A stretch of DNA of 64,000 bases from Chiloscyllium plagiosum (taxonomy: Eukaryota), in contig NC_057718.1 in assembly GCF_004010195.1 (NCBI RefSeq), forward strand, positions 63,140,225 to 63,204,224, read 5' to 3'. Position numbers and translations under genes: made by a program. The notes beneath the pieces were generated by a model, which was given only the letters and a program-made list of their open reading frames with translations, ran no database searches and was not told where the DNA came from. Shown in pieces: positions 2,006 to 55,704 of the stretch (position 1 is its first letter; every line of letters begins with the position of its first letter).

Positions 2006-3961
2006 TTTAATTTAGCGAGTTTTTTTTTGGAAGCTCTTGTACTAATATCTCTACTCAGTACGGATAATGCAATCTATTCCAGAAGTAAAATAAGTCTATA
2101 TTGAAAAATCCAGACAGTGCAATGATTTTGGTATGTTAAAAGATTGCATTGCATGCGAATACAATTTCTATTGCTGCCTTGTTTTATTTCTAACAAAGCA
2201 GCTGAATTTGTTTTGAATGAAGAGAATCTGGATGGGTCTCCTGTGAACTGAATCTACAGCCAGTTGTCACCAAGACATCATCTTCAGAAACTGCAACACT
2301 GTGAAAGAAATGTACTAGTCCATGTGAGAGTGTAACTTGAATTCTAGTTTGTTTTAATAACATTTCATGTGCCAAGTTTCCAATTATAAAATTTGAAGCT
2401 ACATTTTTGGCAATATAGTTTCCTTTCACACCCTAATTTTTGTTTAGTGTGACCACTGCAAATACACAATAGACAATAGGTGCAGGAGTAGGCCATTCTG
2501 CCCTTGGAGCCTGCACCACACAAATTGACTTTTATTCCATAAACTTAAAAATATTCAGGGTGATTTGATCTAATTTTTCAAGATAATACGGTGAATTGTT
2601 CAGGTTAATTGGTAGAAACTATTTCTGATTGGGACATCAACAAGGAGAGCATAGCCTAAAATTTAGAACCAGACCTTTCAGGTGAATTTAGGAAGCATTT
2701 CCATATGCCGTGATTGAGGTTTGGAATTCTTGCTTACAGATAACAGTTTGATACAAAGTCAATTGTTAGTTTTTAAGTCTGAGTTGATTTTTGTTAAGAA
2801 AAGGTTTAGGGAAATTGTGAGTATATGGAGTTAGGTTACAAATTGGCCTTTGATTTCACTGGAATTAAAGGGATTAACTGGCTTACTCCTCTTCAAGTGT
2901 TCTTTAAAAAGTCACAGGTATTCAGAAATTAATGAGATGTGGGGTCAGAATTAAATGTATGGTTTAGTTACTGCTCATGCATTTCAGCTGATTCCTAATG
3001 CAACTTGCCAAACTGGTGGTTTGGGTAAATTCTACATCAGCATTTGTTCTTCATGTTAAAGAACAGCTAAATTCCCACATTTACAACATTTAAAAGGCAT
3101 TTGGACAATGCATGGAGAGGAAAGGTTTAGAAGGATATGGGCTAATTGCAGAGAAATGGGGTTAGTGTGGCTGGTCACTTTGGTCGACATGGACCAGTTT
3201 GGGCCAACAGGGCCTGTTTCCATGCTGCAGGACTCTGAGTCAGATATTTAGCAGACAGTATATTCACTAAAGGTCAACACATATAGTGTGTTAACACTAA
3301 GTTCGCCTTTCAAGAAACACCATTCTGTCTATAAGGAATGAGACCCCAATTAAAATATATATTAGAGTTAGAGAACAGTCTGCTGCTCACCCTTCTTTTT
3401 AGATTGCAAAGTCAGGGTTAGAGAGTTTCCAACCAGCAATGTGCAGATACTTATTATTCAATTGTACATTACACCCACTTCCTCCCATTTTGGCAAAAAA
3501 GTTCAATTCTATGTGGGAAGAGGTGTCTTTGTTTTGCACCAACCTGAAAAGATTCAACAGGAAAATAAAACCACCAATTTACAATCAGAACAAATTTCAA
3601 ATTTTTAATTTCAGAGTACAGAACCTTCTTGTCCCCTGGTAAAAACATTCAAAACCCAAGAGATAGTAGTACCGGAGAGCAAAATAATTCTTGACATCTC
3701 TCTTGGGGTACGGAGCACAAAAAGGACAGAATGATCAAGATAAGAGGTGTGTTCAATTTGTAGCCTAGGTTTACATCTTATGAACATGAAGGGCATTGAA
3801 CAAACAATATCCCGTGCCCTAGTATAACTCCAGAATCTTATGCTAAAGTAAAAAATAAATTAGAAATCAATTGAGAAACAAAATAAGCACAAAGTTTGTG
3901 CGAAGATTTGTAGCTCGGGTGCTCGTTGTTGTGGTTCTGTTCGCCGAGCTAGAAGTTTTTG

Positions 3962-4006
3962 TTGCAAACGTTTCGTTCCCTAGCTAGGCGACATCATCAG
4001 TGCTTG
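3962..4006 (-). ncRNA. Minimal type I hammerhead ribozyme motif (Penelope type)
   Basis: GCA CTGATGA TGTCGCCTAGCTAGGGAAC GAAA CG TT TGC: core boxes, GCA/TGC stem I, palindromic ACGT stem III. Confidence 0.7.
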
Positions 4007-5245
4007 GGAGCCTCCTGCGAAGCGCTTCTTTGATGTTTCCTCCGGTGTTTATAGTGGTCTGTCCCTGCTGCTTCTGGTTGTCAGTTTCAGCTGTCCGCTG
4101 TAGTGGTTGGTATATTGGGTCCAGGTCGATGTGTTTGTTGATGGAGTTTGTGGATGAATGCCATGCCTCTAGGAATTCCCTGGCTGTTCTCTGTCTGGCT
4201 TGCCCTATGATAGTAGTGTTGTCCCAGTCGAATTCATGTTGCTTGTTGTCTGCGTGTGTGGCTACTAAGGATAGCTGGTCGTATCGTTTCGTGGCTAGTT
4301 GATGTTCATGTATGCAGATTGTTAGCGGTTTTCCTTTTGTCCTATATAGTGTTTTGTGCAGTCCTTGCATGGTATTTTGTACACTACATTAGTTTTGCTC
4401 ATGTTGGGTATCAGGTCCTTCGTTCTGGTGGGTTATTGTCTGAGCGTGGCTGTTGGTTTGTGTGCCATTGTGAGTCCTAGGGGTCGCAGTAGTCTGGCTG
4501 TCAGTTCTGAGATGCTCCTGATGTATGGTAGTGTGGCTAGTCCTTTTGGTTGTGGTATGTCCTCGTTCCGTGGTCTTTCTCTTAGGCATCTGTTGATGAA
4601 GTTGCGCGGTATCCCGTTTTTGGCGAATACCTTGTATAATACCCGCGCAACTTCATCAACAGATGCCTAAGAGAAAGACCACGGAACGAGGACAAACCAC
4701 AACCAAAAGGACTAGCCACACTACCATACATCAGGAGCATCTCAGAACTGACAGCCAGACTACTGCGACCCCTAGGACTCATAACGGCACACAAACCAAC
4801 AGCCACGCTCAGACAACAACTCAACAGAACGAAGGACCCGATACCCAACATGAGCAAAACCAATGTAGTGTACAAAATACCATGCAAGGAATGCACAAAA
4901 CACTATATAGGACAAAAGGAAAACCGCTAACAATCTGCATACATGAACATCAACTAGCCACGAAACGACACGACCAACTATCCTTAGTAGCCACACACGC
5001 AGACAACAAGCAACATGAATTCGACTGGGACAACACTACTATCATAGGGCAAGCCAGACAGAGAACAGCCAGGGAATTCCTAGAGGCATGGCATTCATCC
5101 ACAAACTCCATCAACAAACACATCGACCTGGACCCAATATACCAACCACTACAGCGGACAGCTGAAACTGACAACCGGAAGCGGCAGGGACAGACCACTA
5201 TAAACACCGGAGGAAACATCAAAGAAGCGCTTCGCAGGAGGCTCC

Positions 5246-5290
5246 CAAGCACTGATGATGTCGCCTAGCCAGGGAACGAAACGTTTGCAA
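5246..5290 (+). ncRNA. Minimal type I hammerhead ribozyme motif (Penelope type)
   Basis: CTGATGA 5252-5258, GAAA 5278-5281, followed by CGTTTGC; mirror copy of 3962-4006. Confidence 0.7.
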
Positions 5291-5434
5291 CAAAAACTTC
5301 CAGCTCGGCGAACAGAACCACAATAAAATAAGCTAACAAGTTTATTTTCAATAAAAACTTTGATACAAATTTAGAAATACAAACACATCTAAAAGAACTA
5401 AGTGAATCTACTCACAAACCATCTTGAATCTCAC

Positions 5435-5479
5435 CTGAACCAAAATCATATTTAGTTTTCCAATGTAAACCTTCTCCTT
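5435..5479 (-). CDS. XPO1: Exportin-1 exon 6, KEKVYIGKLNMILVQ
   Basis: 45 nt, ttttag acceptor, CAG|gtgaga donor. Confidence 0.96.
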
Positions 5480-5561
5480 CTAAAACAAAAAGAAACAACT
5501 CAGTAAACAATTATGGACTGAATCCAGAAAATCTGCATAATACAATTTAGCGAAAACTTAC

Positions 5562-5623
5562 CTCAATGTTAACAGGATCAGATGAAGTTTTTATAATCAA
5601 TCCAACAACGTATTTTTTAATGC
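5562..5623 (-). CDS. XPO1: Exportin-1 exon 5, (G)IKKYVVGLIIKTSSDPVNIE
   Basis: 62 nt, AG acceptor, GAG|gtaagt donor, phase 1-0. Confidence 0.96.
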
Positions 5624-5985
5624 CTAGATGCAATGGAAAAGGAACAATAAAGTCGATAAGTGACATAGGTGGTTCATTTATTAGTAGCAATTACATTTGA
5701 CTTTAAAAGATGAAAATATTAAACACCTAATCAACATACTATTTCTTAAAAGCTGCACGTCCTATATTCAAGAGCTCAAATTTGCAACACAACAGTGATC
5801 TATTTTCACATGCTTAGTACCAATTAGAGCTGGAAAGAGAAATAATGCTGGAGAAACTCAGCACGTCTGACAGCCGCTGTGGAGAGAGAAACAGAATTAA
5901 CACTGCAAGTCAAGTATGACTCTTCTTTAGAACAGGGGAGACTTTACTTCCATAAAATTGGACATTGGAGTAAACGAATTACTCA

Positions 5986-7527
5986 AACCCTCTCCGTGAA
6001 AATGTTGCCCCTTAGGTCTCTTTTATATCTTTCCCCTCTCACCCTAAACCTATGCCCTCTAGTTCTGGACTCCCCGACTCCAGGGAAAAGACTTTGCCTA
6101 TTTACCCTATCCATGCCCATCATAATTTTGTAAACCTCTATAAGGTCACCTCTCAGCCTCTGACGCTCCAGGGAAAACAGCCTCAGTTGTTCAGCCTCTC
6201 CCTGTAGTTCAAATCCTCTAACCATGGCAACATGCTTGTAAATCTTTACTGAACCCTTTCAAGTTTCACAACATCTTTCCGATAGGAAGGAGACCAGAAT
6301 TGCACGCAATATTCCAACAGTGGCCTAACCAATGTCCTGTACAGCCGCAACATGACCTCCCAACTCCTGTACTCAATACTCTGACCAATAANNNNNNNNN
6401 NNNNNNNNNNNNNNNNNNNNNNNNNNNNNNNNNNNNNNNNNNNNNNNNNNNNNNNNNNNNNNNNNNNNNNNNNNNNNNNNNNNNNNNNNNNNNNNNNNNN
6501 NNNNNNNNNNNNNNNNNNNNNNNNNNNNNNNNNNNNNNNNNNNNNNNNNNNNNNNNNNNNNNNNNNNNNNNNNNNNNNNNNNNNNNNNNNNNNNNNNNNN
6601 NNNNNNNNNNNNNNNNNNNNNNNNNNNNNNNNNNNNNNNNNNNNNNNNNNNNNNNNNNNNNNNNNNNNNNNNNNNNNNNNNNNNNNNNNNNNNNNNNNNN
6701 NNNNNNNNNNNNNNNNNNNNNNNNNNNNNNNNNNNNNNNNNNNNNNNNNNNNNNNNNNNNNNNNNNNNNNNNNNNNNNNNNNNNNNNNNNNNNNNNNNNN
6801 NNNNNNNNNNNNNNNNNNNNNNNNNNNNNNNNNNNNNNNNNNNNNNNNNNNNNNNNNNNNNNNNNNNNNNNNNNNNNNNNNNNNNNNNNNNNNNNNNNNN
6901 NNNNNNNNNNNNNNNNNNNNNNNNNNNNNNNNNNNNNNNNNNNNNNNNNNNNNNNNNNNNNNNNNNNNNNNNNNNNNNNNNNNNNNNNNNNNNNNNNNNN
7001 NNNNNNNNNNNNNNNNNNNNNNNNNNNGGTCAGGTCCTGGGGATTTATCCACCTTTAACCGTTTCAAGACATCCAGCACTTCCTCCTCTGTAATCTGGAC
7101 ATTTTGCAAGATGTCACCATCTATTTCCCTACAGTCTATATCTTCCATATCCTTTTCCACAGTAAATACTGATGCAAAATATTCATTTAGTATCTCCCCC
7201 ATTTTCTGTGACTCCACACAAGGCCGCCTTGCTGATCTTTGAAGTGCCCTATTCTCTTCCCTAGTTACCTTTTTGTCTTTAATATATTTGTAAAAACCCT
7301 ATGGATTCTCCTTAATTCTATTTGCCAAAGCTATCTCATGTCCCCTATTTGCCCTCCTGATTTCCCTCTTAGTATACTCCTACTTTCTTTACACTCTAAG
7401 GATTCACTCGATCTATCCTGTCTATACCTGACATATGCTTCCTTCTTTTTCTTAACCAAACCCTCAATTTCTTTAGTCATCCAGCATTCTGTATACCTAC
7501 CAGCATTCCCTTTCACCCTGACAGGGT
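5986..7527 (-). mobile_element. HER1/CR1 LINE ORF2 fragment spanning an N gap
   Basis: ILNEYFASVFT, KSPGPD, LVRPLLEYCVQFWSP, RLRGDLIEVYKI, TRGH motifs. Confidence 0.9.
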
Positions 7528-9772
7528 CCTAGGTATTAACTCAAGACATACTACTATTCCAGATATGTAACAGAGGGGACTGATTTGAACATGCATTTCC
7601 ACTGCTGTTTAAGGTCAATGCTATTACACTTATACAACTCTTCCTTGAGAAAGTTTTTTTCCCTGCCTGGTTGATACTATGAAACTACAATACTAAAAAA
7701 AAATCCTGTTTTGTTAAGAGCTTCCAGCTCTCAGAGGCAGCTTCAGGCCAATCCAAATCCAACATAATCATATTTGACAGCTGTGAAAAATTGCACTACA
7801 GGAAATGAGACAACCCACAACATCCTTAAAGAAAAAGTCAACTCCACCTCTTGGTGTTAGTGGATCCTTTAAAAATTACCAAGATCCAAATCCACAGCTT
7901 TACTGAAACAAATCAGTTCTGCCTTGAGTCACACCAGGTGTACCCAGTTTTGTTGAAATCTATCTGTAAGGTATATATTGGTTAACAAACAAGGGCAAAA
8001 ACATTACCTCTGCCCATTTTCAGTGGCAAGGGAGGGGGATAGTATACCATAGTCTCAGCATTTTACAGCATTCTGAACATTGGATCCATCGATCTTCACA
8101 CTTTAGACAAATTTAACAATCACCTTAACAGGTCATAGCTAAGAATGACATCTACCTATGTGAAGCTGCATATTTAAGTTCAAGCAGTGCATTCCATCCT
8201 GGCATATATTTAGAACCTCTTACAATAAACATATTTACAGTACAGGTAATGCAGTTCATACTCCCAATAGGTACATGGAAACATAAATAAGATTAGCATT
8301 GCTAAGGTTTTACAAACCCACAAAACAATCTAATTGCATAATAGTATACCTTTACTAATGGATTAAAATCAGGGGATTTCCTACCAAAATCATGGATGCA
8401 TCCTTAGCATACCAGTAGCAGCTCAAGACGGCTCACCATCACCTTTAAGGGCAATAATGAATTGCCAATAAGGCATGGTTTTGACACACTCACCCACATA
8501 TCAAGAATGATTAAAACAAAAATTCATTTGATTCCATTTTGACATGTACATTTTACAGTTTCCTCTGATGTCAGGGTGACTGCTCAGTTGACATTACCAG
8601 TGTTGCTCAAACCAAACAGCACCATAATTCATGGCTGAGAGGCTAGGTGCTCGGCTGAGCAAAGTGATCTCAGTTACAATTTTCATGCAGTGCTAGATTA
8701 TCTGGTCCTGAAAAGCTTTGCACAGCCATGGGCAAATGAAAGGATTAAATGGATAGCTGTTGCTAAGAGGAATCCTTCTCAGTTTTCATTCAATTAAAGC
8801 ATGACAATGGAATTCAGAAAGACTAACTACAATGAACTTCTCCTGGATATTAGATGTTGTTAATTAAGGCCAAATGATGCAACTTGGGATTGGTAACATC
8901 CTGGACTCCACAGTTTGCATCCAGTGTACGTTAAGATACACAGAGAAAATTGTGTAAGTGTGAGCTGGACCATAATCCTTTTAAACATTCTAAGCTTGCT
9001 TTGTGCCATTTCACAGCAAAATTATTCAAATATTTGGAAGGGTGGGAGAGCATGCATCCAAGCAACTGTTGGTCAGTCAGTTAATCAATTCTGTGGATAT
9101 AACTAGAATCTGTTAATGAGTATGTTGTATCTGGAAAATAGGCTACTGAACACCAAAGAGATTTAGGACTCTTTGGTACATGCAATAAGCTTAACCAAAA
9201 GGCTTTTACTTCAAAAGGGCTGCACTACAAAAAGGGAGGAAAAGGCAGTATGGATTGCCAAATCTACTGGAGCTTCATTCAGCTGCCATGTGAGCCTCAG
9301 GAGATATTGACCTAACAGAATAACACATTAATTAGAATAATACCATACTTAAGAGTTAGATGCGTATAGTTGCATAAATTTGGCTAGCATTCCCTTGAAC
9401 ATATACAATTAAGGAGTGGTCTAATTGAGGTAGCTAAAATGTTAAAAGGAGTCAGTATGTTAAACAAGAGAAAATATTCCCTGAAGAAAGGAATGCAGAG
9501 GGGACAAAATTTGAAATCCGCAACTCTACCCAAATCATACGGATTCTGGGACAAGCTGGGAGCTTTCAAAACTGAAGCCAACAAATTTTTATTAGGTGTC
9601 GATATCAATGAATATGGAGCTACAGCAGGTAAATTGAGGGAGCTATACAAAAATAATGATCGAAAAGAACAGTAAACACACAGGACAGTATATAGTTAAA
9701 TTGTGTACTGTCCTCAAGTTAGGAGAGGAAGTGGTTTCCATCTTAATGGAGATATTAATTACAGTAATTTAC

Positions 9773-13394: not shown

Positions 13395-13515
13395 GAGAAG
13401 GTGATGGCTGCAGATGCTGGAGATCAGAGTTGAGAGAGTGGTGCTGGAAAAGCACAGCAGGCCAGGCAACATCCAAGGAGTAGGAGAATTGACATTTCCG
13501 GAAGGAAACCTTTGA
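13395..13515 (-). mobile_element. Degenerate copy of the short hammerhead-bearing element
   Basis: ctgcagatgctggagatcagag...gctggaaaagcacagcagg...ggagaattgacatttc matches 54827-54951; core decayed. Confidence 0.7.
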
Positions 13516-32848: not shown

Positions 32849-32976
32849 GAGAAAGTGAGGACTGCAGATGGTGGAGATCAGAATCAAGGATGTGATGCTG
32901 GAAAAGCACAGCAGGTTAGGCAGCATCCAAGGAGCAGGAGAATCGACATTTCGGGCAAAAGCCCTTCATCAGGAAT
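32849..32976 (-). mobile_element. Short hammerhead-bearing element
   Basis: Minus strand AGATTC CTGATGA A GGGC TTTT GCCC GAAA TG TC GATTCT, followed by the same body as 54827-54951. Confidence 0.8.
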
Positions 32977-44850: not shown

Positions 44851-46620
44851 CTTGGAGTCTGACGAGATAGGAGAAGCGCTAAATGAATATTTTTTGTTGG
44901 TATTCACACTGGGGAAAAAAAATGTTGCCGAGGAGAATACTGAGATACAAGCTACTAGACTAGATGGGATTGAGGTTCACAAGGAGGAGGTGTTAGCAAT
45001 TCTGGAAGGTCGGCTGGATGGGATTTGTCCTTGCATTCTCTGGGAAGCCGGGGAGAAGATTGCAGAGCCTTTAGCTTTGATCTTTATGTCATCATTGAGT
45101 GCAGGAATAGTACCAGAAGACTGGAGGATAGCAACTGTTGTCCCCTTGTTCAAGAAGGCCTTTAATTATATGTGAGCCTTACTTCAGTTGTATGTAAAGT
45201 GTTGGAAACGGTTATAAGAGATAGGATTTAAAATCATCTAGAAAGGAAGAGCAACTGTTGTCCCCTTGTTCAAGAAGGCCTTTAATTATAGGTATGTGAG
45301 CCTTACTTCAGTTGTATGTAAAGTGTTGGAAACGGTTATAAGAGATAGGATTTAAAATCATCTAGAAAGGAAGAAGTTGATTAGGGATAGTCAACACAGT
45401 TTTGTGAAGGATAGGTCGTGCCTCACAAACCCTATTGAAATCTTTGAGAAGGTGACCAAACAGGTGGATGAGGGTTTTGATTTGGTGTATATGGATTTCA
45501 GTAAGGTGTTTGATAAGTTTCGGTAGGCTATTGCACAAAATACAGAGGCACAGGATTGAAGGTGCTTTTGTGATTTGGATCAGAAATTGGCTAGCTAAAA
45601 GAAGACAGAGGGTGGTGGTTGACAGAAAATGTTCATCCTGGAGTTCAGTTCCTTGTGGTGAACCGCAAGGATCTGTTTTGTGTCCACTGCTGCTTGTCAT
45701 TTTTATAAATGACCTGGATGAGGGCGTAGAAGGATGGGTTAGTAAATTTGTGGATGCCACTAAGGTCAGTAGAGTTGTGGACCATGCCGAAATATGTTGT
45801 AGGTTGCAGGAGGATATAGATAGAGTTGGGCTGAGAGGTGGCAAATGGAGTTTTATCTGGAAAAGTGTGAGGTGATTCACTTTGGAAGGAGCAACAGGAA
45901 TAATGGTAAGATTCTTGGCAGTGTAGATGAGCAGAGAGATCTCGATGTTCATGTACATAGATCCCTGAAAATTGCCACCCAGGTTGATAAGGTTGTAAAG
46001 AAGGCATGCAGTTAGCTTTTACTGGTAGAGGGATTGATTTTCGGAGCCACCAGGTCATGTTGCAGCTGTACAAAACTCTGATGCAGCCACACTTAGAGCA
46101 CTGCCTACAGTTCTGGTCACTGCAATATAGGAAGGATGTGGAAGCTTTGGAAAGGGTGCAGAGGAGATTTAATAGGGTGTTGCCTGGTATGGAGGGAAGG
46201 TCTTATGAGGAAAGGCTGAGGGACTTGAGGCTGTTTTCGTTAAAGAGACAAAGGTTGAGAGGTGACTTAATTGAGACATACAAGATAATCAGAGGGCTAG
46301 ATAGCTTGGACAGTGAGAGCCTTTTTCCTCAGATGGTGATGGCTAGCATGAGAGGACATAGCTTTAAATTGAGGGGTGATAGATATAAGACAGATGACAG
46401 AGATGGTTTCTTTACTCAGAGAGTAGTAGGGGCATGGAACACCCTGCCTGCAACAGTAGTAGACTCATCAACTTTAAGGGCATTTAAATGGTCATTGGAT
46501 AAACATATGGATGAAAATGGAATAATGTACGATAGGTAGGCTTCAGATTGGTTCCACAGGTCAGTGCAGCATTGAGGGCTGAAGAGTCTGTACTGCAATT
46601 TATTGTTCTATGTTCTATGT
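44851..46620 (+). mobile_element. CR1 LINE (RT and 3' end) inserted in the L1 endonuclease
   Basis: PEDWRIATVVPLFKK, PQGSVL, FINDL, LYKTLMQPHLEH, (gttctat)n tail; L1 frame ILN|YCPP resumes after it. Confidence 0.9.
45130..45373 (+). repeat. ~120-bp tandem duplication
   Basis: 45130-45249 is repeated at 45250-45373, differing by a 4-nt indel (ggta). Confidence 0.9.
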
Positions 46621-54210: not shown

Positions 54211-54822
54211 TATTAACAGAAAATTCTGATGAAACTCAGCAAGTCTGAAGCATATGTGGAGCAAGAAACAGAGTTAACATTTTGAGTCCTTTATGACTTC
54301 TTCTGCAATTACCTATGTCCTCTTTACAGCATATTTTCCTACCTTATCTTTTGCATCATCTCAACTTCAGCTGTCATACCTTAGTTCCTTTCATTTGGTC
54401 TTTGATATAAATTATAAAAACTGAGACTCCTGCATCACATCCTGCCAGTTAGAAAAATCACTCATTGACACCAATGACATAGGTCAAAAGAGAGATGGGA
54501 TCTTGAGGCAGAAATTCAGGGGGCTAGGGTGGAAGCTTAGAGCTAGGACAAACCAAGTTTTTTTCTCTGGTTTGCTGCCCGTGCCGTGTGCTCGTGAGGT
54601 GAGGAATAGGGAGAGAAAGGAGTTGAACACGTGGATACAGGGATGGTGCAGGAGGGAGGGTTTCAGGTTTTTGGATAATTGGAGCTCTTTCTGGGGTAGG
54701 TGGGACCTCTACAAGCAGGATGGTCTTCATCTAAACCAGAGGGGTACCAATATCCTGGGTGGGAAATTCGTTATAGCTATTAAGGTAGATTTAAACTAAT
54801 ACAGCAGGGGGATGGGAACCAA

Positions 54823-54861
54823 AATTCCTGAAGAAGGGCTTATGCCCGAAACGTCGATTCT
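54823..54861 (+). ncRNA. Minimal type I hammerhead ribozyme, intact core
   Basis: CUGAAGA 54828-54834, stem II GGGC/GCCC, GAAA 54848-54851, ACGU palindromic stem III, GUC cleavage triplet ending at 54855. Confidence 0.8.
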
Positions 54862-54951
54862 CCTGTTCCCTGGATGCAGCCTGACCTGCTGCGCTTTTCC
54901 AGCAACACATTTCCAGCTCTGATCTCCAGCATCTGCAGACCTCACTTTCTC
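54827..54951 (+). mobile_element. 125-nt hammerhead-bearing retroelement with 10-bp TSD
   Basis: AACCAAAATT at 54817-54826 and 54952-54961; begins C CTGAAGA A GGGC TTAT GCCC GAAA CG TC GATTC. Confidence 0.88.
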
Positions 54952-55634
54952 AACCAAAATTGTAGGACAGGTACAGAAGAGGATGAGAGTAGGGAGTTCC
55001 AAAATCAAGTATCTGACACTGGCAAGTGAGAACTTGGTTTGAAGTGTGTGTACTTCAACGCGAGGAGCATCCGAAATAAAGTGGGTGAACTGGTAGCGTG
55101 GGTTGGTACCTGGGACTTCGATGTTGTGGCCATTACGGAGACATGGATAGAGCAGGGACAGGAATGGCTGTTGCAGGTTCCGGGATTCCGATGTTTCAGT
55201 AAGAATAGAGAAGATAGTAAAAGAGGGGGAGGTGTGGCATTGTTGATCAGGGACAATAGTACAGTTGTAGAAAGGATGTTTGGGGACTTGTTAACTGAGG
55301 TAGTATGGGCTGAGGTTAGAAACAAGAAAGGAGAAGTCACCATGCTGGGAGTTTTCTATAGACCTCCGAATAGTCCTAGAAATGTAGAGGAAAGGATAGC
55401 AAAGATGATTCTTGATAGGAGTGAGAGAGGTAGGGTAGTTGTCATGGGGGACTTCAACTATCCAAATATTGACTGGGATCACTACAGTACGAGTACTATA
55501 GATGGGTCCGTTTTTGTCCAGTGGCTTCCTGACACAGTATGTAGACAGGCCTACAAGGGGCGAAGCTACTTTAGATTTAGTACTGGGTAACGAGCCTGGC
55601 CAGGTGTTAGATTTGAAAGTAGGTGAGCACTTTG

Positions 55635-55704
55635 GAAACGTCGCTTCCTGCTCCTCGGATGCTTCCTGATCTGCTGTGCTTTTCCAGCATCACACTTTTC
55701 GACT
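55635..55704 (+). mobile_element. Truncated copy of the hammerhead-bearing element
   Basis: gaaacgtcg..ttcctgctcctcggatgc..ctgctgtgcttttccagc. Confidence 0.7.

What the first reader, a model, noticed from the sequence alone, without database searches (positions are those of the whole stretch)
54817..54961. Tiny non-coding mobile element that starts with an intact hammerhead core and has a clean 10-bp TSD
Seen: a 125-nt insert between ORF1 and ORF2 of a CR1, flanked by AACCAAAATT, opening with CUGAAGA / GGGC-UUAU-GCCC / GAAA / CG / UC. It has no ORF and no tRNA-like A/B boxes. Related copies are at 32849-32976, 13395-13515 and 55635-55704, i.e. four in 64 kb. Inference: an abundant ribozyme-containing non-autonomous family (solo Penelope pLTR or retrozyme-like) mobilised via RNA. 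It may be known as a repeat but not as a ribozyme carrier.
Basis: partly seen in the sequence, partly recalled or inferred. Interest (0 to 1): 0.7.

Follow-up and report, generated by a model that had tools for sequence, protein, structure and literature searches.

The report
Penelope retroelement stub with minimal hammerhead
This 125-base insertion is the ribozyme-bearing end piece of a very abundant Penelope-like jumping gene in a shark-type genome, a known kind of element and not a separate non-coding one, although such stubs share a sharp start point that likely marks where the copying enzyme ran off the front of the element's own RNA.

Summary
Observation confirmed. A 125-nt insert (54827-54951) with an exact 10-bp TSD sits in a CR1; 24 of 24 other CR1 copies have the site once. 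It opens with a complete minimal hammerhead. It is not a separate non-autonomous family: it is the pLTR of a Neptune-type Penelope-like element (PLE). It follows the GIY-YIG ORF end in 30 of 30 loci picked by that ORF end, also precedes the ORF start, and is not tandem. Short and long copies intermix on a tree. Density is about 126 segments/Mb. Hammerheads in PLE pLTRs are published (PMC4209133). Beyond that: coverage steps about fourfold at the ribozyme's 5' edge, 30 nt before the cut site, and near-full-length copies start there too. This suggests run-off from internal priming on the 5' pLTR (inferred; no RNA start seen, no cap-G signal). Only 2 of the 4 window copies keep the core. The scan reported this PLE-stub and run-off reading before, in this genome and others.

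The parts
54817..54826 (+). Left copy of the 10-bp target-site duplication; its last 3 nt also match the element's own positions -2..0 (microhomology)
54827..54951 (+). 125-nt insert: solo pLTR of a Neptune-type Penelope-like element; the same unit is the element's 5' leader and its 3' end
54824..54859 (+). Minimal type I hammerhead: stem I 5' arm 54824-54827, C3-A9 54828-54834, bulged A 54835, stem II 54836-54839 with 54844-54847, GAAA 54848-54851, 4-nt palindrome 54851-54854, C17 54855, stem I 3' arm 54856-54859 (3 pairs and one U.U)
   Evidence: cleavage not tested
54919..54951 (+). Optional 3' 'tail' of about 33 nt (this copy also lacks up to 3 further nt seen in many copies); boundary approximate
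   Evidence: 3' ends are bimodal: 17 of 30 at 123-125, 12 of 30 at 89-102; following bases
54842..54922 (+). 26-codon ATG frame starting in loop II (possible upstream ORF; function not tested)
   Evidence: translation frames
54952..54961 (+). Right copy of the target-site duplication
54425..54799 (+). Host CR1, 3' part of ORF1 (GDSL esterase-like)
55030..55590 (+). Host CR1, ORF2 fragment (AP endonuclease domain)
32849..32976 (-). Older solo copy (85%), starts at position -2, core kept, palindrome decayed at CpG
13395..13501 (-). Older copy (82%) without the hammerhead core
55635..55697 (+). Older tail-less fragment (82%), starts at the GAAA box, no CUGA box or stem II

Best explanation
The insert is a solo terminal repeat (pLTR) of an abundant Neptune-type Penelope-like retrotransposon, likely pasted in by that element's own reverse transcriptase and GIY-YIG nuclease, and it is likely a dead-end copy. 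Shown: the same 125-nt unit stands at the 3' end of RT/GIY-YIG copies and directly before the ORF; TSDs are variable (8-17 nt); there are two 3' ends about 33 nt apart; many copies begin within a few bases of the hammerhead's 5' edge. Inferred steps: (1) the nuclease cuts A/T-rich DNA with a stagger; (2) RT primes inside the RNA at one of two fixed sites (about +92 or +128), as shown in vitro for the Anolis PLE; (3) when it primes on the 5' pLTR it would run off the RNA's 5' end after about 130 nt, giving stubs like this one, while priming on the 3' pLTR gives longer, raggedly truncated copies, and priming on both DNA strands gives head-to-head pairs with one tailed arm; (4) the RNA would start at the A of an initiator-like motif (position -2), making the hammerhead the first 35 nt of the transcript. 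The hammerhead has no helix III and is predicted to work only as a dimer or with protein help; the template for this copy was uncut. Confidence: PLE pLTR identity about 0.95; run-off from the RNA start about 0.55.
For: Linkage: unit downstream of the GIY-YIG ORF end in 30 of 30 loci picked by that ORF end (one is the query's own), about 155 nt after the stop; downstream and in sense in 20 of 30 loci picked by RT (the rest end in N runs, lie out of range or are rearranged). Pfam: GIY-YIG E 7.4e-06, RVT_1 E 7.8e-08, both above cut-off in their best copy. One N-free locus (L142) holds RT, thumb, linker and the unit. 5' end: of 16 stretches fetched upstream of N-terminal ORF hits, 7 run from the unit into the ORF (6 events): 3 start at +2, +4, +5 and 3 are partial tandems. 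Boundary: coverage rises from 30 at -10 to 128 at +4 in 1.35 Mb; 10 of 14 solos with a TSD of 8 or more have the left TSD ending at -3..+2; loose ends at -2 are among the best supported in independent DNA contigs and RNA reads. A/T-rich motif kept 31-33 nt upstream of A(-2) in 5 otherwise diverged upstream types; a second family has TATAAA 30 nt before the start of its short copies (by eye). 30 of 32 head-to-head pairs have exactly one tailed arm. Ribozyme kept by selection on source elements: 0 of 27 constrained positions carry a shared non-CpG variant against 13 of 57 downstream (one-sided Fisher p=0.004); four families keep the core with different, compensated stems. Literature: internal RT start sites matching the tail, both strands cut and extended, uncut RNA as template (PMC11167929); internal pLTR promoter (PMC2377424).
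Against: No RNA start or cleavage end was seen: 2132 reads of one poly(A) single-cell run lie on both strands, 92% run on into unlike sequence, and no place stands out where molecules begin or end; a second run laid 0 reads (such a library is poor for 5' ends). No cap signature: 0 of 14 TSD-defined solos have a lone G before the start; G at -3 in 8 of 28 solos against 0 of 79 long copies is about what flank DNA would give. Part of the coverage step is an alignment effect: by eye about 7 of 48 'solos' are long copies of diverged subfamilies and about 4 are missed inversions. Among young copies (88% or more) only 5 of 15 solos start at -6..+4. A third hammerhead family (C) shows almost no short copies. 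Partial tandems need template upstream of -2, so a jump, read-through or circle must be added. No single intact full-length copy was seen; the map is pieced from overlapping loci. The conservation test needs alignments reaching position 3, which favours matches there.
Confidence: 0.8

Rival explanations
1. Same element, but the shared 5' boundary is a stall or joining hotspot: RT copying from the 3' pLTR stops or switches at the hammerhead (protein-bound or paired), and the cDNA end is fixed by microhomology with ATT-ending cut sites.
For: The window copy has 3 nt of microhomology at the junction. Inversion joints scatter over -6..+17, across a near-palindrome and stem II. The Anolis PLE nuclease prefers ATT (PMC11167929). 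No cap G and no RNA start seen.
Against: Copies end after the whole motif has been copied, not on entering it. Near-full-length copies start at the same place. An A/T-rich motif sits 31-33 nt upstream in diverged subfamilies and a TATAAA box at -30 in family B.
Confidence: 0.3
2. A separate short non-autonomous element (SINE-like or non-LTR retrozyme) derived from the pLTR amplifies by itself using the PLE enzymes in trans.
For: Short forms greatly outnumber long ones (128 segments span +5..+20, 16 span -150..-120) and have a defined start. PLE-derived retrozymes are reported in one chondrichthyan (10.64898/2026.07.22.740005).
Against: Tree of 48 young copies: 14 label changes against a shuffled mean of about 16.3 (70-87 of 500 shuffles as low), and 2 sets of identical rows span both labels (the tree is poorly resolved). 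The window copy is 1 change from ORF-linked copies. No tandem arrays. No tRNA-like head.
Confidence: 0.1
3. The stub's 5' end was made by hammerhead self-cleavage of the RNA.
For: The motif is conserved as a ribozyme; 5 of 83 solos start at 24-34.
Against: The cut is after position 29, yet this copy and 42 of 83 solos start at -6..+4. A competing self-complementary duplex over the cut site is predicted more stable than the double hammerhead (-21.9 against -9.5 kcal/mol, helices only).
Confidence: 0.03

Closest known systems
[quoted passage not shown]
   Same: Core boxes, one unpaired base before stem II, G10.1-C11.1 pair, palindromic 15.2-16.2, no helix III, short helix I; thousands of single motifs tied to truncated PLEs, some pairs on opposite strands; several families per genome.
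   Different: Sharks are not named in what I read. Stem II here is 4 bp, not 7-8. Copy number (about 100 insertions per Mb) is far above the 4,000-9,000 given for coelacanth and Xenopus. A shared 5' start at the ribozyme edge is not described.
Endonuclease-positive PLEs, Neptune clade (Craig et al. 2021, PMC8557442; passages read)
   Same: RT then CX2-5CxxC linker then GIY-YIG with two cysteines between the motifs; heavy 5' truncation, partial tandems, inverted copy at the 5' end, 30-40 bp tail on one end, variable TSD.
   Different: No microsatellite targeting seen here; clade rests on the linker motif, not on a tree with named references.
Poseidon PLE of Anolis, PAc (Frangieh et al. 2024, PMC11167929; parts 1-2 of 4 read)
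   Same: Two RT start sites bounding the tail, both strands cut and extended, ATT preference, uncut RNA as template, protein-assisted ribozyme.
   Different: Other clade; its ORF starts inside the hammerhead, whereas here the likely ORF start is near +164, after the tail. The paper does not address 5' ends of short genomic copies.
Non-LTR retrozymes (Li, Clavereau, Pollet 2026, 10.64898/2026.07.22.740005; parts 1-3 of 5 read, supplements closed)
   Same: pLTR-derived, non-coding, type I hammerhead, many monomers; reported in one chondrichthyan.
   Different: Defined by tandem units each with a hammerhead; none seen here. This unit carries a TSD and shows no lineage of its own.
Solo and inverted pLTRs of Adineta Penelope (Arkhipova et al. 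2013, PMC3846280; passages read)
   Same: Solo pLTRs, inverted pLTR with tail, 8-10 bp TSDs, TATA and initiator-like motifs in the pLTR.
   Different: Low copy number; solo pLTRs there lacked TSDs and were ascribed to recombination or deletion, whereas these are primary insertions.

Membership tests
Endonuclease-positive Penelope-like element | RT domain linked to the repeat | tested here: met
   RVT_1 E 7.8e-08 in L141; unit downstream in 20 of 30 RT-picked loci
Endonuclease-positive Penelope-like element | C-terminal GIY-YIG nuclease with two cysteines between the motifs | tested here: met
   PF01541 E 7.4e-06 in L057; E 4.4e-04 (below cut-off) in L038; no hit in L095; motif read
Endonuclease-positive Penelope-like element | Same repeat at both ends (pLTR), partial tandems and inverted copies | tested here: met
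   32 head-to-head pairs
Endonuclease-positive Penelope-like element | Optional 30-40 bp tail on one end | tested here: met
   bimodal 3' ends; 30 of 32 pairs have one tailed arm
Endonuclease-positive Penelope-like element | Variable-length TSD | tested here: met
   18 of 30 young loci show an exact repeat of 8-17 nt
Endonuclease-positive Penelope-like element | One intact RT-EN reading frame in a single copy | tested here: inconclusive
   no intact copy seen; loci are truncated, deleted or broken by N runs; relatives of about 800-900 aa with both domains exist
Neptune clade | CX2-5CxxC linker between RT and nuclease | tested here: met
   C-X4-C-X2-C in L038, L095; criterion from PMC8557442 (shared with Nematis)
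Neptune clade | RT groups with named Neptune references | not tested
   no named reference sequences in hand
PLE minimal hammerhead | Core boxes, bulge before stem II, G10.1-C11.1, palindromic 15.2-16.2, short stem I | tested here: met
   features from PMC4209133
PLE minimal hammerhead | Self-cleavage as dimer or with protein | not testable with these tools
   folding only; reads show no cut end
Non-LTR retrozyme | Head-to-tail tandem units, each with a hammerhead | tested here: not met
   1 of 171 segments has a same-strand neighbour within 300 nt; rare arrays elsewhere in the genome are not excluded
Non-LTR retrozyme | Circular RNA | not testable with these tools
   poly(A) reads only
SINE-like non-autonomous family | Own lineage apart from the autonomous element | tested here: not met
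   labels intermix on a 48-row tree; identical rows in both groups (weak resolution)
SINE-like non-autonomous family | tRNA-derived Pol III head | tested here: not met
   ARAGORN 0 genes, Rfam none; weak tests for a decayed head, but the unit is wholly pLTR

The most novel reading that the evidence does not exclude
The hammerhead is the first 35 nt of the PLE transcript, and hundreds of thousands of stubs are integrated 'strong-stop'-like cDNAs: RT primes internally on the 5' pLTR and runs off the RNA start. If that cDNA end can re-anneal to the 3' pLTR and go on, as a retroviral R region does, one mechanism would give solos, head-to-head pairs and partial tandems without a circular RNA, and the genome would record the element's start site and both priming sites at base resolution.
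Probability: 0.4. Interest if true: 0.6.

Novelty: new member of a known kind. Interest (0 to 1): 0.3.

Why it matters
As a thing, it is ordinary: PLE pLTRs are known to carry minimal hammerheads and to litter genomes as truncated singles. It matters modestly in two ways. First, scale: about 126 segments per Mb would mean some 450,000 segments in this 3.56-Gb genome, which Rfam does not see. Second, the ends of the copies give testable predictions for the poorly understood PLE cycle: a transcript start at the ribozyme's 5' edge, two priming sites used one per strand, and an uncut template. These match in vitro results from another clade and could be checked with one CAGE data set.

Tried and rejected
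Rfam scan of the window at E<=1: no hammerhead family; the one hit (mir-3910, 49 bits, below its 95 threshold) is the hinge of an unrelated inverted PLE. Genome search with the 3' 80 nt alone returned nothing because common words are skipped; no information. Sequencing runs: no RNA holder listed; one RNA run laid 0 reads. Pfam gave no meaningful hit for the L096 and L095 pieces and a sub-threshold RT hit for L109. Cap-derived extra G: looked for, not found. Cleavage-made 5' ends: 5 of 83 solos, rejected as the main route. Splice-acceptor origin of the boundary (as the intron end meets helix I in D. virilis, PMC4209133): rejected because solos share no upstream exon; mean identity of upstream flanks 0.26, 4 of 1128 pairs above 0.6. 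Tandem retrozyme and separate short lineage: rejected. A first TSD search in old copies was weak (18 of 48 with 7 or more nt against a null of 22 of 240), so a stricter one was used. Paper searches: shark + Penelope + hammerhead gave nothing on point; run-off/strong-stop + pLTR gave 0 papers; some searches gave the papers cited. Lunse et al. (PMC5785218) is not held; I saw only its title in a reference list, and it may list shark motifs. No structure prediction was run.

Full report
Numbering. Position p of the element is window base 54826+p, so +1 is 54827 and -2 is 54824.

1. The observation. The 10-mer at 54817-54826 recurs exactly at 54952-54961 around 125 nt. I searched the genome with the left flank: of 25 loci, one is the window itself and the other 24 have the 10-mer once, followed by the window's right flank. 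The host is a CR1-type element: GDSL esterase-like ORF1 and AP-endonuclease ORF2; the insert is 28 nt after the ORF1 stop, where the ORF2 frame reads open in many empty copies. The hammerhead boxes are as described, with one extra A before stem II. Stem I has three pairs and a U.U; its 5' arm survives because the TSD ends in the same three bases as the element's -2..0. Three related copies lie in the window at 82-85%; only 32849-32976 passes a minimal-hammerhead descriptor.

2. What it belongs to. The best 30 genomic matches (94-100%; 611 candidates, 40 scored) fell by eye into three kinds: about 10 continuing upstream into a shared sequence, 12 with an inverted partial copy head to head, and 8 solos. 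The upstream sequence ends a reading frame with a GIY-YIG nuclease. Searching with that ORF end, 30 of 30 loci carry the unit about 155 nt after the stop; 17 end at 123-125, 12 at 89-102, 1 at 55. Walking upstream gave a C-X4-C-X2-C linker, an RT thumb and RT core (RVT_1 E 7.8e-08); 20 of 30 RT-picked loci hold the unit downstream in sense. Of 16 stretches fetched upstream of N-terminal ORF hits (16 of 40 hits), 7 run from the unit straight into the ORF, with a likely ATG near +164; two share flanks, so 6 events: three start at +2, +4, +5 and three are partial tandems preceded by the nuclease end of another copy. Overlaps add up to about 3.8 kb; no single intact copy was seen. The nearest named RT relatives are Chiloscyllium punctatum proteins (87% and 80%), so the host is likely a bamboo-shark relative. 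All of this is the published architecture of endonuclease-positive PLEs, with the linker of Neptune/Nematis (PMC8557442, passages).

3. Abundance and ends. In 140 stretches of 10 kb taken at fixed places on large contigs (1,353,016 non-N bases), 171 segments match, 126 per Mb, 51 of them at 88% or more. Of 32 head-to-head pairs, 30 have one arm with the tail and one without; none has two tailed arms. TSDs in young copies are 8-17 nt in 18 of 30 loci. Coverage climbs from 30 at -10 to 128 at +4; 42 of 83 solos start at -6..+4 and 5 at 24-34, around the cut site. Caveats: by eye about 7 of 48 inspected solos are long copies of diverged subfamilies and about 4 are missed inversions, and among young solos only 5 of 15 start in the peak. 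After stricter sorting of 180 core-bearing copies from all loci (not a random set), 14 of 52 solos had a TSD of 8 or more and 10 of these end at -3..+2. Independent DNA contigs and RNA reads show loose, mutually unlike ends at -2.

4. The ribozyme. The descriptor gives 67 hits against 0-2 in five shuffles; they fall into at least four families with the same core and different, compensated stems, and a bulge before stem II in 64 of 67. Among 116 copies of this family, shared non-CpG variants (15% or more) occur at 0 of 27 constrained positions, 2 of 7 free positions and 13 of 57 downstream positions (p=0.004; the alignment filter favours the left end). So source elements kept the motif. There is no helix III; the palindrome allows a dimer, but a competing duplex over the cut site scores -21.9 against -9.5 kcal/mol (helices only). 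That fits low activity of such motifs (PMC4209133) and protein help (PMC11167929). Activity is untested.

5. Mechanism. Shown: linkage, two 3' ends, variable TSDs, one tail per pair, a shared 5' boundary upstream of the cut. From the literature: the Anolis PLE protein cuts and extends both strands, starts RT at two internal sites that bound the tail, prefers ATT, and uses uncut RNA (PMC11167929); Penelope has an internal pLTR promoter (PMC2377424, passages). Inferred: priming on the 5' pLTR and run-off at the RNA start makes the stubs. For: near-full-length copies start there too; the A at -2 sits in an initiator-like context (consensus recalled, not from a call); an A/T-rich motif stays 31-33 nt upstream in 5 diverged upstream types; family B has TATAAA 30 nt before its short copies' start (by eye; 7 of 22 copies short or inverted). 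Against: no RNA start in poly(A) reads, no cap G (0 of 14), family C has almost no short copies, and partial tandems need an added jump. I put the run-off step at about 0.55 and a stall or microhomology hotspot at about 0.3.

6. A separate family? On a tree of 48 young copies (25 with the upstream UTR, 23 without; 6 duplicate loci left out) the label needs 14 changes against about 16.3 shuffled, two sets of identical rows span both labels, and the window copy is one change from ORF-linked copies (resolution is poor, and one site skews to short copies, likely because the window copy was the query). One of 171 segments has a close same-strand neighbour. So neither SINE-like lineage nor retrozyme.

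7. Novelty. Minimal hammerheads in PLE pLTRs, mostly as scattered singles, are published (PMC4209133; also reviewed in PMC6765202 and PMC6155905, passages). pLTR-derived retrozymes are reported in one chondrichthyan (10.64898/2026.07.22.740005; its supplements are closed and may list this family). Solo pLTRs are noted in PMC3846280 (passages). My searches found no paper on a shark family or on run-off stubs; one supplement file of PMC4209133, Lunse et al., Dfam and Repbase were out of reach. I had written the run-off reading in my notes before looking at earlier scan findings, which report the same reading in this genome and others; they are not independent support, and their extra-G claim did not show in my sample. 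Verdict: new member of a known kind; interest 0.3.

Noticed in passing
window 3892-5325: A second PLE, head to head: arms 3926-4609 and 4642-5325 are 97.7% inverted repeats, with a GIY-YIG end lacking the cysteine linker (Poseidon-like) and hammerhead boxes at 4000 (-) and 5252 (+); one arm has a roughly 34-nt tail. The Rfam mir-3910 hit (4576-4676) is its hinge.
   Followed up: partly
L168, L186, L196, L243, L253, L254, L265, L270: Family B hammerhead (different stems and palindrome) with a canonical TATAAA 30 nt before the start shared by its short copies; two of these have a G just before the start.
   Followed up: partly
L154, L182, L201, L260, L274, L301, L306: Family C hammerheads: TATAAA about 48 nt before the core, and nearly all copies keep the upstream sequence, unlike families A and B.
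   Followed up: no
L134:oriented 920-1140; L146, L169, L174, L189: A subfamily with a fully paired 4-bp stem I and a different loop II; a natural comparison for cleavage tests against the U.U form.
   Followed up: no
L234:950-1560, L215, L230: The PLE ORF has a long Ala/Thr/Pro-rich N-terminal region with variable tandem repeats before the RT.
   Followed up: no
L024: Two copies of this family are inserted, each with its own TSD, into another PLE's coding region.
   Followed up: no
window 55635-55697: The CR1 fragment ends exactly where a core-less pLTR piece begins; no TSD was looked for.
   Followed up: no
window 45130-45374: A 120-nt tandem duplication at 96.8% identity.
   Followed up: no
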